A stretch of DNA of 64,000 bases from Eledone cirrhosa (taxonomy: Eukaryota), in the NCBI GenBank assembly GCA_964016885.1, contig OZ024742.1, positions 243,288,001 to 243,352,000 of the forward strand, in the 5' to 3' direction. The position numbers and the translations under genes are program-made. A model generated the notes under the pieces. It was given only the letters and a program-made list of their open reading frames with translations. It did no database searches and was not told where the DNA came from. Every line of letters begins with the position of its first letter. The stretch's first letter is position 1. Positions 1,941 through 37,707 of the stretch are shown here, one piece after another.

Positions 1941-2976
1941 TAAATAACTATTTATCACATATGTATGAAATTTGTAGAAATTTGTTGCTTTTTTCTACAA
2001 ATTTCTATAAATTTCATACTTGACGGTCCAACACTAGCACATATGTAAGATTTAACAATGTATAAATACAGTGTATAAATACAATGTATAATATTGGGTC
2101 GTCAAGTATGAAATTTGTAGAAATTTGTGTTTTTTCTATAATTTTCTACAAATTCCGTACTTGATGATCCCATACGCGGCAAGAATGAAGGCTGAACGTA
2201 ATTTACAGAAACATACCGACATGTATAGATCCACGAGCGACTTGATGAAAGACTTATTATACAAACGAATGCGTGATTTTATAGTGTGCAACTTTACATT
2301 CTCAAACTCTGTGTGTGTGTGTGTGTGAGTGTGTGTGCGCGTATGCGTTTGTGCGTGAGTGTGAATGCCATAGTTTCATGTGTTTGTGTGTGTCGTGATT
2401 AAGATAAACATGTTTTGTCCAGTTTAAATATTTCTGTTGAGTGAGCTCGTGTACACGCACGTGTGTGTGTGTGTGCGTGTGTGTATGTGTGTATGTGTAG
2501 GTGCGTGTGTGTGTCTGTGTGTGCGTGTATGTATGTGTGTGTGTATGTATGTGTATGTATGTGTCTGTGTGTGCGTGTATGTATGTGTGTGTGTATGTAT
2601 GTGTATATATGTGTCTGTGTGTATGTATGTGTGTGTGTCTGTGTCTGTGTCTGTGTGTGTGCGTGTGTGTGTGTGTGTGTGTGTATGTGTAGGTGCGTGT
2701 ATATGTGTGTGTGTGTGTCTGTATGTGTGTGTCTCTGTGTCTGTATGTGTGTGTGTATGTGTGTGTGTGTACGTATATCTGTAGGTATACAAATACTGCA
2801 GTAGGTTCGGGTGGCAGTCCAATATGTCGTCACACAGCTTACATTGTCCACTAATTCGAAGATAACTGTTGTTCCTTGTTCTCTCTTTCATCAACAGCCA
2901 CTAGTAAATTAAGTTTATTGACCCAACTCAGAGAATGCCGTCCCTCAACCAGTTTCTATAAATTTCAATCTCTCTC

Positions 2977-3283: not shown

Positions 3284-4235
3284 CTAGCAGTAAAGCTCGG
3301 CGTTGCTCGGGGTCGCTCAGTAGCTGTGTTAAAGTTACAATGTTAAGTTTCTTTCTTGGCTTAAAAACTGTAGTGTCTACTGTGCAGATTTGCATGTGGT
3401 GTTTTTGATTAATATTCCCTCAACCAACAATATGCCTTATGAAGTTAAGAAAACATAACGATAACCCGAATGTTATAACAAAAGAGGATGCTGGGGATAG
3501 AAACTGCACTGGTTATTTATTAACAAAGATCGAAAATGTAAACACTGCAACGCAGAGAAAAACATTAGCGTAACCAAATTATCAGTTATGTCTGGCTGCA
3601 CGCCTATATCACCTCTCTGCACGACTGTCTGTCTGCACGCCTATATCACCTCTCTGCACGACTGTCTGTCTGCACGCCTATATCACCTCTCTGCACGACT
3701 ATCTGTCTGCACGCCTATATCACCTCTCTGCACGACTATCTGTCTGCACGCGTATATCACTTCTCTGCACGACTGTCTGTCTGCACGACTGTCTGTCTGC
3801 ACGCCTAACGACGAAATATTTGCTTGTTTTACGTAGTCTTTAAATAGACTTGTTTTCAAGTAAAAATATTGTTTTAAAATGCTTTTAAATGGAAATGAAG
3901 CAAAACGGAAGCTTAGTGTTCGAACTGATGAATTTTGCAGGTCAATATTTTGCTGGCTCGACAACTGTTAAAGCCAGCGTAATTTTTTACGTAAGACGCT
4001 CAATGTAAACAGAACAAAGGGAAATAACTGATAACTTACGCTCAAAAATCGATACATTATATTCGATTTCGTCACATAGGGTGGGTCAATTTGAAATTTT
4101 TTTTTTTCCGATGTCTTCGCTAGGGCTCAATGTACAAGTCTCGCAATTTCGGTGCAATTCCGTGAGAGATTCTAAGAGGAGATGTGTGCCGAAAATCGAT
4201 AGACAGACAGACAACCACAGTTTTATATATATAGA
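3284..4235 (-). mobile_element. Non-autonomous Helitron
   Basis: On the minus strand: A|TCTATATATATAAAA 5' end followed by (CTGT)n, subterminal hairpin CCCGAGCAACGCCGAG, and CTAG|T 3' end. Confidence 0.8.
3596..3806. repeat. 37-bp minisatellite (~5.5 copies) inside the Helitron
   Basis: Unit ctgcacgcctatatcacctctctgcacgactgtctgt starts at 3596, 3633, 3670, 3707 and 3744, plus a partial copy. Confidence 0.95.
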
Positions 4236-4615: not shown

Positions 4616-4742
4616 TGTGTGTGTGTGTGTGTAAGAGAGTAATTGAAAGTGGAAAAATCCACTCGTGTTTTAACAAGGTGCGTTGAAGCTCATTATGATT
4701 TCCTTCGAATGAAACAGTTCTAGTCCTGTACAAGCCATTTCC

Positions 4743-4787
<45 letters not shown>

Positions 4788-4789
<2 letters not shown>

Positions 4790-4969
4790 CGAAGGTAGTG
4801 TGGCAAGGAACCAGGTGGACCATAACGCATCAGAGTACTCTATACTTAGGGTACTAGAGTGGGTAATAGGAAAATGTTCAAGACCCCGAGGGCAGAGCTC
4901 AGGCCGTTTCGACGGTTGAGGGACGGCATTCTCTGAGTTGAGCTCTGCCGTCGGGGCCTTGAACATTTT

Positions 4970-4974
<5 letters not shown>
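4788..4974 (-). mobile_element. Fold-back Penelope-like miniature element, family B
   Basis: Lies between (TA)n tracts. Inverted arms 4866-4901/4939-4974 with a one-sided tail; homologous to 6243-6443 and 36518-36753. Confidence 0.65.
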
Positions 4975-5007
<33 letters not shown>

Positions 5008-5012
<5 letters not shown>

Positions 5013-5440: not shown

Positions 5441-5990
5441 GACCGAATGAATCTCCGCTACAGAGTTAAGAACAAAGTAAATAAATACATTACAGAAGTA
5501 ATAGAAACAAATAAATACATACGCGCAAACAGATACGTACATACACAAGCATACGCAAAACCTTACCATAGGTATACAAAACCACGCACATATAAATATG
5601 TGTGTGTGTGTATGCTTGTGTACAAATAAATAAATAATTATATAAACGTATATAAGTAAATAAATACGTATATAACAAGCGCACACACATACCTACAAAT
5701 AAATACACGAAGGTTCGGAGACGTAAGCCCTCTCTGGATTTTAGTCTTCAATTTTATTATTATTACTATATATATATATATGATATAATATATATATGGT
5801 ATGGTCTCGTAACTCCTGAGAATGATACAAAGTGAGAGAGAGAGGAAGCGAGAAAGAGATGTCGAGGAAGAATCGACCTCAGCACTTGACTGGTATTTTT
5901 TTATCGACCTCGAAAGAATGAAAGGCAAAGCTGACCTCTGCAGGATTTGAACTCAGGTAGTGCAGATTCGGAACACAAAGCATTCTGACG

Positions 5991-6022
<32 letters not shown>

Positions 6023-6024
<2 letters not shown>

Positions 6025-6224
6025 GTTATTCCGGGTTGAATCGGGGGTAACCACGGTAAGTAAGGTACTCAATACATAGCAGAGTATAAAAGTTTTAATA
6101 TAGATGAGATTCTACAGGACTAGAACTGTTTCATTCTTAAGAAATCATGAGGAATCCCGATTCCTGATGATTTCTTAAGAATGAAACAGTCCTAGTCCTG
6201 AAGAATCTCATTTATATTAAAACT
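6023..6224 (-). mobile_element. Fold-back PLE-like element, family A, with hammerhead-like core
   Basis: Arms 6091-6156/6159-6224. Core CTGATGA-TTTCTTAAGAAT-GAAAC...GTC at 6164-6197. Homologous to 25853-26013 and 4690-4745. Confidence 0.65.
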
Positions 6225-6242
6225 ATATATATATATATATAT

Positions 6243-6443
6243 ATAGGAACGAGTAGGACCCCGACGGCTGAGCTCAAGCCGTTTCGACGGCTCATTCTGG
6301 ATTTAGTCCAGAATTAGCCGTCGAAACGGCTTGAGCTCAGCCGTCGGGGTTTTACTCGTTCCTATTACCCACTCTACTACTCTAAGTATTGAGTACTTTG
6401 GTGCGTTATGGTCCATCTGGTTCCTTACCACATTTCCTTCGTT
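6243..6443 (+). mobile_element. Fold-back PLE-like element, family B
   Basis: Arms 6243-6301/6307-6365, then a tail containing GTATTGAGTACT; flanked by (TA)n. Confidence 0.65.
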
Positions 6444-36111: not shown

Positions 36112-36400
36112 ACATCAACACACATGTATCTCTATACACACATGTATCTCTATACACACATGTATCTCTAAACACACATGTATCTCTATACACACATGTA
36201 TCTCTATACACACATGTATCTCTATACACACATGTATCTCTAAACACACATGTATCTCTATACACACATGTATCTCTATACACACATGTATCTCTATACA
36301 CACATGTATCTCTATACACACATGTATCTCTATACACACATGTATCTCTATACACACATGTATCTCTATACACACATGTATCTCTATACACACATGTACA
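36112..36400. repeat. 18-bp minisatellite (acacacatgtatctctat), ~15-16 copies
   Basis: Near-perfect tandem array. Confidence 0.95.
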
Positions 36401-36434: not shown

Positions 36435-36517
<83 letters not shown>

Positions 36518-36522
<5 letters not shown>

Positions 36523-36753
36523 AGAAAGTATGACCCCGACGGCAGAGCTCAAGCCGTTTCGACGGCTATTTCTGGATTAAAATCAGAGAGATCAGGTTAT
36601 TGGAAATCAATATGGATGTCATGAAATAGCCGTCGAAACGGCTTGAGCTCTGCCGTCGGGGTCATACTTTCTCCTATTACCCACTCTACTACCCTAAGTA
36701 TTGAGTACTCTGGTGCGTTATAGTCCATCCGGTTCTTTACCACAACTCCGTTA
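36518..36753 (+). mobile_element. Fold-back PLE-like element, family B, with captured loop
   Basis: Arms 36518-36572/36623-36677 and tail to 36753; flanked by (TA)n. Confidence 0.7.
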
Positions 36754-36848: not shown

Positions 36849-36985
36849 ATACTCATCTTTTTCCATTTATCTGAGAGTTCTAAACCCCATTATCAGACTA
36901 AAATTTATTTAGTTGAAAAGTACGGTGAAAGCTATTCTATTTTCTAATTTCAAACCTGCTCACTGTTTCCAAACATACTTACTTG

Positions 36986-37021
<36 letters not shown>

Positions 37022-37200: not shown

Positions 37201-37707
37201 TTATATAAATCCATGTAACAGACAATCATACTTGGCAGACTTAAGCACACGTACGTACACCCACAAACATAAACACAAATATGTATATGTATATATGTAT
37301 GTGTGTATAAATACAAGCATGCACGCATGCTTTCACCCGATACTCAACTATTATGAAACTTGTTTCTCTGAGGTTGTAAACACCAGTTTTAATTGGTTCC
37401 GTTGTATCACATGACATCCATATTGATTTCCAATAACCTGATCTCTCTGTTTTTAGCTCTTCCTTTTCTCGGTTTCCTCTCAACAAAGACAAAGATATGT
37501 TGGTACAGACAACTTATTTACTTTATTTTTCTTACTACATATATAATAATGAAAATGTGAAGACTAAAATCCGAAGGGGACTCGATAACGATAGTATATA
37601 TATATAAATATATATTCCAGAAGATCCCGTTATGGCTGAAAGCAGCGATTCTTTGCTTAAACTTTAATCTGTTATTTTAATAAATAAATATATATATATA
37701 TATATGT

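What the first reader, a model, noticed from the sequence alone, without database searches (positions are those of the whole stretch)
4914..4940. Hairpin tip of a family-B element is an exact inverted copy of DNA 2 kb upstream
Seen: 4914-4940 (GGTTGAGGGACGGCATTCTCTGAGTTG) is the exact reverse complement of 2924-2950, with 2-3 nt microhomologies (GG, TTG) to the element arms. The other family-B copies have different loops. Inference: the junction between the two arms was patched from local DNA, either by RT template jumping or by polymerase-theta-like templated insertion.
Basis: partly seen in the sequence, partly recalled or inferred. Interest (0 to 1): 0.75.

Follow-up and report, generated by a model that had tools for sequence, protein, structure and literature searches.

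The report
Repair patch copied from nearby DNA
The 27 bases at the tip of this hairpin-shaped repeat are an exact inverted copy of unique DNA 2 kb away, likely a scar left when a break at the hairpin tip was mended by copying nearby DNA, and similar scars sit at other copies of the same repeat.

Summary
Window 4914-4940 is the exact reverse complement of 2924-2950 (0 of 100 shuffles match). In the 3.0-Gb genome the 27-mer occurs only at these two places, allowing up to 2 mismatches.

"Family B" is a very abundant repeat, with at least 5,506 places. It has a 77-nt head plus a long near-perfect palindrome and is embedded in (TA)n. Its normal "loop" is simply the continuing palindrome, whose centre is deleted to varying extents.

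Copy A lost that centre plus about 16 nt of the right arm. In their place it carries the 27-mer, joined through GG (left) and TTG (right) microhomology. This is a deletion plus templated insertion.

It is not a one-off:
- Copy C in the same window carries a 46-nt tip that is 45/46 identical to an inverted copy of DNA 786 nt away.
- Of 126 sampled long-tip copies, 21 have private inserts. For 9 of those 21 the best match among 126 flanks is their own flank (about 0.2 expected by chance).
- Sources lie 0.2-4.6 kb away. Six patches are inverted and four are direct.

Nothing supports the RT-jump idea.

The kind of scar is known (Pol-theta or MMBIR-type templated insertion; palindrome centre revision). 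Templates here are unusually far away and patches unusually long. Independent reads did not confirm the junction.

The parts
4914..4940 (+). Templated patch: exact inverted copy of 2924-2950. The first 2 nt (GG) and last 3 nt (TTG) are also what the element arms would carry, so 22 nt are unambiguously foreign.
2924..2950 (-). Source (template) of the patch: unique DNA between a (GT)n and a (CT)n tract. 1,963 nt lie between it and the patch.
4789..4865 (+). 77-nt head of family-B copy A (the non-palindromic part, present in all copies).
4866..4913 (+). Left arm of copy A. 4866-4901 pairs with the right arm. 4902-4913 is inner left arm whose partner was deleted.
4941..4974 (+). Right arm of copy A, truncated: it lacks about 16 nt of inner arm plus the palindrome centre, compared with copies B and C and subfamily relatives.
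4747..4788 (.). (TA)n tract flanking the head. All copies examined sit in (TA)n.
4975..5010 (.). (TA)n tract flanking the right arm.
6247..6442 (-). Family-B copy B: canonical form. The palindrome runs to a 5-nt loop (DNA fold -69.4 kcal/mol).
36517..36744 (-). Family-B copy C, with its own foreign tip.
36578..36623 (+). Tip of copy C: 46 nt, 45/46 identical to the reverse complement of 37410-37455. A second local templated patch in this window.
37410..37455 (-). Source of copy C's patch. 786 nt lie between it and the patch, on the head side of the element.

Best explanation
The 27 bases at 4914-4940 replace the lost centre of a palindromic repeat copy and are an exact inverted copy of unique DNA at 2924-2950; they were likely put there when a break at the hairpin tip was repaired by a DNA polymerase that primed on 2 bases of microhomology, copied the nearby strand and rejoined on 3 bases of microhomology.

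Shown:
- The patch, its uniqueness in the genome, and the deletion it replaces.
- GG and TTG shared between the patch ends and the arms.
- Recurrence of local patches at other copies.

Inferred course of events:
1. The long palindrome extruded a hairpin or cruciform and was cut, or a fork collapsed there.
2. The ends were resected by at least 2 kb.
3. The 3' end of the left arm (...CGACGG) folded back on its own strand and paired GG with CC at 2949-2950.
4. It was extended by about 25 nt, which gives the inverted orientation.
5. It came off the template, and its new end TTG paired with the right-hand end at ...CTTGAGCTC. The gap was then filled and sealed.

Direct-orientation patches at other copies would arise the same way, with the other broken end acting as primer on the resected strand. 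The enzyme (Pol theta, or Pol delta as in yeast foldback insertions) is not known. The result is a shorter stem with a 37-nt spacer, predicted to be less prone to further breakage.
For: - The 27-mer is exact, inverted, and present only twice in 3.0 Gb.
- Copies B and C, 29 canonical copies and 29 subfamily relatives show what copy A should carry: a palindrome continuing through ...CGACGGCTATTTCTGG... and back. Copy A therefore has a deletion plus an insertion.
- Microhomology is GG on the left and TTG on the right.
- Palindrome centres of the family are deleted to different extents in thousands of copies. 5,506 places have a shortened centre. All 50 places listed there are centre deletions, with at most about 9 nt of filler by eye.
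- Local templating recurs. Copy C has 45/46 inverted, 786 nt away.
- Of 126 sampled long-tip copies, 21 have private inserts of 15 nt or more, and 9 of those 21 hit their own flank best among 126 flanks. Six of them do so by a wide margin: L034, L061, L081, L136, L150, L159.
- Details: L034 42/42 inverted; L159 65/65 inverted; L150 59/60 direct; L081 39/42 inverted; L129 52/53 inverted; L136 66/67 direct plus a second 30-nt inverted piece; L061 39/42.
- L157's 52-nt patch has its only other genomic match 4.6 kb away on the same chromosome.
- In L034 the patch lies inside the right arm, 6 nt past an intact turn-around. This fits a break in an existing palindrome.
- DNA folds: canonical copy B -69.4 kcal/mol, copy A -41.9 kcal/mol.
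- Published signatures: inverted or direct templated inserts with minimal microhomology from Pol theta (PMC5068794, passages read); foldback inverted insertions at yeast breaks (PMC11724301, abstract read).
Against: - Canonical Pol-theta inserts are mostly under 25 bp, with templates a few bases from the junction, and snap-back is a minor class (PMC5068794, passages). Here patches are 27-67 nt, templates lie 194-1,963 nt away (4.6 kb in one case), and 6 of 10 are inverted. The scale therefore fits the textbook Pol-theta scar poorly.
- Nothing here separates a break from a stalled fork.
- Timing is not settled. Copy A differs from its subfamily consensus at 6 of 127 positions while the patch has 0 of 27 differences. 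Under equal age, P(0) = 0.078, only a hint that the patch is younger.
- Only a minority of private inserts have a local source. 12 of 21 did not hit their own flank best. Some are pieces of dispersed repeats (L045, L137; L152 matched other loci's flanks better) or of the family's long form (L080, L141).
- The junction in copy A rests on the assembly alone.
Confidence: 0.55

Rival explanations
1. Replicative template switch without a two-ended break (FoSTeS/MMBIR type). The hairpin formed by the palindrome stalls a fork. The nascent strand leaves its template at ...CGACGG and primes on 2 nt of microhomology on a nearby single-stranded stretch of the same fork or sister. It copies about 25 nt and switches back past the hairpin on TTG. 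The outcome is the same scar.
For: The published MMBIR-type templated insertion signature is an inverted copy of a nearby template flanked by microhomology. Classes in quasi-palindromes and multi-template events are described (PMC8421209, passages read). Patch lengths (27-67 nt), the two-piece patch in L136, and template distances of hundreds of nt to kb fit template switching at least as well as end joining.
Against: The published search defined templates as lying within 100 bp (PMC8421209), so kb-range templates are not documented there either. Pure centre deletions with blunt or near-blunt symmetric junctions dominate the family, which is what hairpin-tip cleavage and end joining give. No feature measured here separates the two.
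Confidence: 0.3
2. The patch was made at the moment the element inserted. The polymerase (a reverse transcriptase or a transposition-linked DNA polymerase) that built the second arm by turning back on the first jumped briefly onto local nucleic acid.
For: Local sources mean the event happened at the locus, which integration also satisfies. 10 of 29 subfamily relatives lack a recognisable right-arm anchor within 400 nt: 7 truncated copies, 2 long forms and 1 with a diverged arm end; 2 further copies counted as unanchored by the script do carry a right arm on reading. The family has a constant head end and a variable other end, which loosely recalls 5' truncation. A long, non-palindromic form exists (L172, L174). 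Patched copies are young (1-3% from consensus), so patch age and element age cannot be separated well.
Against: No reverse transcriptase, ribozyme or poly-A tail was found. The long form ends in a 29-nt inverted repeat, like a DNA element. Identical tips occur at unlinked loci (L011, L024, L025, L026), so the tip is copied faithfully on transposition. L034's patch is beside the turn-around, not at it. Summed over 8 events, 9 patch/source differences were seen where about 23 would be expected if patches were as old as the elements (my arithmetic). That test is biased towards well-preserved patches.
Confidence: 0.08
3. Assembly or sequencing artefact: a chimeric read at a hairpin was built into the consensus.
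For: The 100% identity of the patch is what an artefact would give. Palindromes are hard to sequence.
Against: The same kind of patch occurs at other loci with 1-3 substitutions relative to the source (copy C, L081, L061, L150, L129), which an artefact would not show. The junctions have microhomology and replace a deletion precisely. A consensus assembly would not normally fix a rare chimera.
Confidence: 0.05

Closest known systems
Polymerase-theta-mediated end joining with templated inserts (delins); snap-back and trans synthesis (van Schendel et al. 2016, PMC5068794, passages read; Kent et al. 2016, PMC4912351, and Yu & McVey 2010 SD-MMEJ, PMC2943611, search listing only)
   Same: A deletion plus an insert copied from the flank; 1-3 nt priming microhomology at both junctions; both inverted (same end) and direct (other end) copies; occasional multi-piece inserts.
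   Different: Published inserts are mostly under 25 bp with templates a few bases from the junction, and snap-back is a minority. Here inserts are 27-67 nt, templates lie 0.2-2 kb (once 4.6 kb) away, and 6 of 10 are inverted. Enzyme dependence is untested.
MMBIR/FoSTeS templated insertions (MMB-TI; Osia et al. 2021, PMC8421209, passages read)
   Same: Insertions of 10 bp or more that are inverted copies of nearby templates with microhomology at the junctions. Germline examples, quasi-palindrome classes and complex multi-template events are described.
   Different: That work searched only within 100 bp. The events here are at a defined structure, the centre of a transposable-element palindrome, and use kb-range templates.
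Foldback inverted insertions at yeast double-strand breaks (Yu et al. 2024, PMC11724301, abstract read)
   Same: Inverted templated duplications made by a 3' end folding back on microhomology, with the other end captured by end joining.
   Different: The yeast events are about 5-34 bp and use microhomology adjacent to the break. Here the template is up to 2 kb from the break.
Centre-break palindrome revision, and cleavage of palindromic AT-rich repeats (recalled from memory: Cunningham et al. 2003; Akgun et al. 1997; human PATRR work; only citing papers were listed)
   Same: A long palindrome loses its centre, which creates a spacer or asymmetry that stabilises it. Thousands of family-B copies show such centre deletions.
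   Different: The known cases are single transgenes or a few human loci. Here a whole repeat family records the outcomes, including templated patches.

Membership tests
Templated-insertion repair scar (Pol-theta / alt-EJ type) | The insert is a copy of sequence near the junction | tested here: met
   27/27 identical to 2924-2950, inverted, and the only other occurrence in the genome
Templated-insertion repair scar (Pol-theta / alt-EJ type) | Microhomology of 1 nt or more at the priming and closing junctions | tested here: met
   GG and TTG are shared by the patch ends and the arms
Templated-insertion repair scar (Pol-theta / alt-EJ type) | The insert accompanies a deletion at the same site | tested here: met
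   The palindrome centre and about 16 nt of inner right arm are missing compared with copies B and C and 29 subfamily relatives
Templated-insertion repair scar (Pol-theta / alt-EJ type) | Typical scale: insert under about 25 bp, template within a few to tens of bp (PMC5068794) | tested here: not met
   27 nt, with the template 1,963 nt away. Other copies: 42-67 nt, with 194-1,258 nt between patch and source
Templated-insertion repair scar (Pol-theta / alt-EJ type) | Dependence on POLQ | not testable with these tools
   Needs genetics
MMBIR-type templated insertion (MMB-TI) | An inverted copy of a nearby template flanked by microhomology | tested here: met
MMBIR-type templated insertion (MMB-TI) | Template within 100 bp (operational definition in PMC8421209) | tested here: not met
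   1,963 nt
MMBIR-type templated insertion (MMB-TI) | Arises during replication or BIR | not testable with these tools
   No time-resolved or genetic data
Centre-break palindrome revision | The starting structure is a long, nearly perfect palindrome | tested here: met
   Canonical copies: stem of about 55 bp with a 0-5 nt loop, -69.4 kcal/mol. Older forms are longer still
Centre-break palindrome revision | The change is centred on the symmetry axis and leaves a spacer or asymmetry | tested here: met
   Copy A keeps a 36-bp stem with a 37-nt spacer. 5,506 places have shortened centres
Centre-break palindrome revision | Hairpin or cruciform cleavage by a structure-specific nuclease | not testable with these tools
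   Inferred only
Retroelement insertion with RT template jump | The element shows retroelement hallmarks (RT partner, poly-A or ribozyme, target-site duplication) | tested here: inconclusive
   No Rfam family above threshold. The long form has 29-nt terminal inverted repeats and an internal A-rich stretch. Duplications cannot be read inside (TA)n. No autonomous partner was found in 20 kb beside one related element
Retroelement insertion with RT template jump | The tip is created anew at each insertion | tested here: not met
   The identical tip occurs in L011, L024, L025 and L026 on four chromosomes
Non-autonomous DNA element (MITE / foldback-like) as the carrier | Terminal inverted repeats and small size, in many copies | tested here: met
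   29-nt inverted ends in the long form and full palindrome in short forms; at least 5,506 places. The 77-nt head outside the left repeat is atypical
Non-autonomous DNA element (MITE / foldback-like) as the carrier | A defined target-site duplication and a transposase-encoding partner | tested here: inconclusive
   Always embedded in (TA)n, so a TA duplication cannot be told apart from the tract. No partner was identified

The most novel reading that the evidence does not exclude
Family-B palindromes act as thousands of built-in break sites that record a long-range form of templated repair in this animal's germline. The broken tip copies DNA 0.2-5 kb away rather than a few bases away. The reach may come from the (TA)n tracts that flank every copy: in resected single strands they could pair with distal (TA)n tracts and bring the 3' end next to the template. 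In copy A the tip is 125 nt from its (TA)n and the source is 167 nt beyond a distal (TA)n. The figures are 128/214 for copy C and 137/223 for L129. If so, microsatellites steer where repair copies from.
Probability: 0.12. Interest if true: 0.75.

Novelty: new variant of a known kind. Interest (0 to 1): 0.5.

Why it matters
Templated insertions are the main footprint used to recognise Pol-theta end joining and MMBIR in cancer and germline genomes. Current catalogues look for templates within tens to 100 bp. Here a single repeat family with thousands of near-identical palindromes provides a natural, replicated record of what happens when a hairpin-forming sequence breaks in an animal germline.

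The record is mostly centre deletions, with some self-templated duplications. A measurable minority are patches of 27-67 nt copied from 0.2-4.6 kb away. A whole-genome scan could confirm this. If it does, it would give rates, orientation bias, distance distribution and microhomology use for long-range templated repair without any experiment. It would also argue for widening the search radius of templated-insertion callers.

For annotation, odd "loops" in palindromic repeats should be checked against local DNA before being read as subfamily markers.

Tried and rejected
1. Independent reads.
   - (four runs, Logan contigs, 90% likeness or more): the stretch is swamped by other copies of the repeats, and no contig spans the patch.
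   - (X15-X18, 99% or more, 76-nt target): 0 contigs laid. The tool warns this is no proof of absence.
   - The junction is therefore neither confirmed nor refuted by reads. Five earlier tries of that call did not complete.
2. RNA families. In 401 bases around copy B, nothing reached a gathering score; there were only weak hairpin-like miRNA hits.
3. Search for an autonomous parent. 20 kb beside a related element next to L010 showed no ORF over 195 aa in the first 10 kb and no second terminus. I gave this up.
4. Age test of patch against element: inconclusive, and biased by subfamily differences and by finding only well-preserved patches.
5. 'Snap-back only' (all patches inverted): rejected, because direct patches exist (L150, L136, L061; L157).
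6. (TA)n-pairing geometry: fits 3 of 6 inverted events (copy A, copy C, L129) and not L034, L081 or L159. It was not tested against chance, so I keep it only as the novel case.
7. Earlier notes of this scan: nothing for this genome or this repeat.
8. The 27-mer as part of a larger inverted duplication: no extension beyond 27 nt.

Full report
**1. The observation**

Window 4914-4940 is the exact reverse complement of 2924-2950. At up to 3 mismatches there is no other match in the window, and none of 100 dinucleotide-preserving shuffles gave two matches. In the whole genome (G000, 2,995,841,428 bases; the window is C3:243288001-243352000) the 27-mer, at up to 2 mismatches, occurs only at these two places. 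The match does not extend beyond 27 nt.

**2. What 'family B' is**

BLAST of 4789-4975 against the window finds two more copies: B at 6247-6442 (-) and C at 36517-36744 (-).

Abundance in the genome:
- A search with copy B returned 40 full-length matches at 93-100% identity out of 2,155 first-look candidates.
- A pattern of the two outer arm motifs with a 20-50 nt gap matched 5,506 places.
- With the head motif added and longer gaps, it matched 404 places (gap 99-129) and 116 places (gap 130-160).

Aligned copies show a 77-nt head followed by a long, almost perfect palindrome, always embedded in (TA)n. Sequence beyond the (TA)n is unrelated between copies.

So the 'loop' of a normal copy is just the continuing palindrome. 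Its centre is deleted to different extents, both symmetrically and asymmetrically, in copy after copy. Older or longer forms carry a still longer palindrome.

Two relatives of copy A (L172, L174) are a non-palindromic form of about 565 nt. It has the head, the left arm, about 380 nt of internal sequence with an A-rich stretch, and only a 29-nt inverted repeat at the right end.

No Rfam family reached its threshold on copy B. I could not classify the element further. It looks like a non-autonomous DNA element with inverted ends, but the head outside the left repeat is atypical.

**3. What happened in copy A**

I compared copy A with copies B and C and with 29 relatives picked only by similarity to its head and left arm.
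- Copy A keeps the left arm through ...CGACGG.
- It lacks the palindrome centre and about 16 nt of the inner right arm.
- It carries the 27-mer in their place.
- The first two bases of the patch (GG) are what the left arm has anyway. The last three (TTG) are what the right arm has just before GAGCTC.

Among those 29 unselected relatives, none has a foreign patch of 20 nt or more, and one (L181) has about 18 nt of unknown origin. The 50 short-centre places listed show only deletions, with at most about 9 nt of filler by eye. Patches like copy A's are therefore uncommon.

**4. Is local patching a property of the family?**

Sample:
- From the first 100 rows, I dropped copy C itself and two second-strand rows of overlapping places. 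The remaining 97 places were fetched with about 5 kb on each side.
- The first 30 places came with 1.5 kb on each side. One was a duplicate place, which leaves 29.

Result:
- Of these 126 copies, 21 have an insert of 15 nt or more made of 11-mers found in no other sampled copy.
- Each insert was compared by BLAST with all 126 flanks, with the elements masked. For 9 of 21 the best hit is in the copy's own flank. About 0.2 would be expected if flanks were interchangeable.
- For six the margin is wide (own flank vs best other flank, in bits): L034 83.8 vs 36.2; L061 48.1 vs 26.3; L081 60.0 vs 34.2; L136 125 vs 101; L150 111 vs 26.3; L159 52 vs 28.2.
- L129 is best in its own flank, but its source is a repeated sequence (81.8 vs 73.8). 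L071 and L040 are borderline (21 and 14 nt).

Junction-level alignments:

| Copy | Match | Orientation | nt between patch and source |
|---|---|---|---|
| L034 | 42/42 | inverted | 520 |
| L159 | 65/65 | inverted | 1,258 |
| L150 | 59/60 | direct | 194 |
| L081 | 39/42 | inverted | 353 |
| L129 | 52/53 | inverted | 861 |
| L136 | 66/67, plus a second 30-nt inverted piece | direct | 588 |
| L061 | 39/42 | direct (a weaker inverted hit also exists) | 1,087 |

L157 had no match within 1.5 kb. Its only other hit in the genome (52 nt, 98%) lies 4.6 kb downstream on the same chromosome, in direct orientation.

Copy C of this very window carries a 46-nt tip that is 45/46 identical to the reverse complement of 37410-37455, 786 nt away. 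Two of the three copies in the window are thus patched from local DNA.

Against the reading:
- 12 of 21 private inserts did not hit their own flank best.
- Some are pieces of dispersed repeats (L045, L137; L152 matched other loci's flanks better), microsatellite (L130, L156), or the family's long form (L080, L141).
- Four remain unexplained (L050, L075, L140, L142).

**5. Mechanism**

Many tips also carry duplications templated by the element itself. Examples are L036, L041 and L070, which re-copy the left arm, and L076, which is a triplication. The palindrome centre is therefore a hot spot for deletion and for microhomology-primed re-copying.

My preferred reading has four steps:
1. The hairpin or cruciform tip is cut, or a fork breaks there.
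2. The ends are resected.
3. A 3' end primes on 1-4 nt of microhomology. It does so either on its own strand, which gives an inverted patch (copies A and C, L034, L081, L159, L129), or on the other end's strand, which gives a direct patch (L150, L136, L061, L157).
4. After a short extension the end rejoins on microhomology.

All steps after 'the centre is missing and a local copy is in its place' are inferred.

The scale differs from the published Pol-theta scar. There, inserts are mostly under 25 bp, templates lie a few bases away, and snap-back is a minority (PMC5068794, passages read).

The signature matches MMBIR-type templated insertions in being an inverted nearby template with microhomology, and in having multi-template events. 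That work, however, searched only within 100 bp (PMC8421209, passages read).

Yeast foldback insertions at breaks are 5-34 bp and need Pol delta plus end joining (PMC11724301, abstract read).

I therefore keep a replicative template switch as a strong rival, and I cannot name the polymerase.

**6. The RT-jump idea**

- Tips are inherited. The same tip occurs in L011, L024, L025 and L026 on four chromosomes.
- The long form ends in inverted repeats.
- In L034 the patch lies 6 nt past an intact turn-around, inside the right arm.
- Copy A differs from its subfamily consensus at 6 of 127 positions, while its patch has 0 of 27 differences from the source. If they were of equal age, 2.55 differences would be expected, P(0) = 0.078.
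- Summing eight events, about 23 differences would be expected and 9 are seen (my arithmetic). This comparison is biased towards well-preserved patches and inflated by subfamily differences, so I count it only as a hint.
- Patching at the moment of integration is not excluded, but nothing supports it.

**7. Structure**

Folded as single-stranded DNA:
- Copy B's palindrome gives -69.4 kcal/mol with a 5-nt loop.
- Copy C gives -60.8 kcal/mol with a roughly 50-nt loop.
- Copy A gives -41.9 kcal/mol.

A spacer of tens of nt is expected, from the palindrome literature as I recall it, to curb further hairpin extrusion. The patch would then stabilise the locus.

**8. What remains open**

- The junction in copy A rests on the assembly alone. 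Public short-read contigs were uninformative.
- The carrier element is unclassified.
- The (TA)n-pairing idea for how a template 2 kb away is reached fits three of six inverted events and is untested against chance.
- My literature searches listed no paper describing local kb-range templated patches at transposable-element palindromes. Three searches do not show that none exists.

**9. Verdict**

The templated-insertion interpretation is supported, and it extends from one case to a recurrent property of the family. The RT alternative is not supported.

The kind of event is known. The setting (a genome-wide set of repeat-borne palindromes) and the scale (27-67 nt copied from 0.2-4.6 kb away) make it a variant worth a whole-genome follow-up.

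Noticed in passing
window 36578-36623 and 37410-37455: The 'loop' of family-B copy C is 45/46 identical to an inverted copy of DNA 786 nt away. This is a second local templated patch in the same window.
   Followed up: yes
L172 and L174 (G000:C2:407097575-407100699 and C2:54440327-54443451): A long, non-palindromic form of the family, about 565 nt. It has the head, the left arm, about 380 nt of internal sequence with an A-rich stretch, and only a 29-nt inverted repeat at the right end. The palindromic short forms look derived from it by re-copying of the left arm.
   Followed up: partly
window 4695-4737; also about 5990-6130 (right flank of copy B): Another very high-copy repeat: summed contig word depth in the hundreds of thousands in run X15. 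Beside copy B it forms its own palindromic, MITE-like unit. The genome seems rich in palindromic small elements.
   Followed up: no
L136 (G000:C1:311077463-311080659), element 1501-1697: A two-piece patch: 67 nt direct plus 30 nt inverted, both from local copies of a repeated unit 0.5-1.2 kb away. This implies more than one template switch in one event.
   Followed up: partly
L036, L041, L070, L076, L154 and others: Many long tips are duplications templated by the element itself. The left arm is re-copied in direct orientation, a 21-nt arm segment is triplicated, and the head plus (TA)n is copied into the tip.
   Followed up: partly
copy A, copy C, L129: In three inverted events the tip lies 125-137 nt from the element's flanking (TA)n, and the source lies 167-223 nt beyond another (TA)n tract. 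Pairing of the two tracts in single-stranded DNA could juxtapose primer and template. Three other inverted events do not fit.
   Followed up: partly
window 3580-3800: A tandem array of a roughly 37-nt unit (…ctgcacgcctatatcacctctctgcacgactgtctgt…), about six copies, between the source site and copy A.
   Followed up: no
window about 36900-36990 (left flank of copy C in element orientation): A stretch that looks like the 3' half of a tRNA (…GGGAGTCGAACC…), possibly a tRNA-derived SINE fragment.
   Followed up: no
window about 36200-36400: A long tandem array of a roughly 20-nt unit (…ATACATGTGTGTATAGAGAT…) just beyond the (TA)n and (GT)n on the right-arm side of copy C.
   Followed up: no
L167, L168, L171, L176, L179, L184, L189: 7 of 29 relatives of copy A have the head and left arm but no right arm. 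In some the left arm runs straight into (TA)n. Whether these are deletions or truncated insertions is unclear.
   Followed up: no
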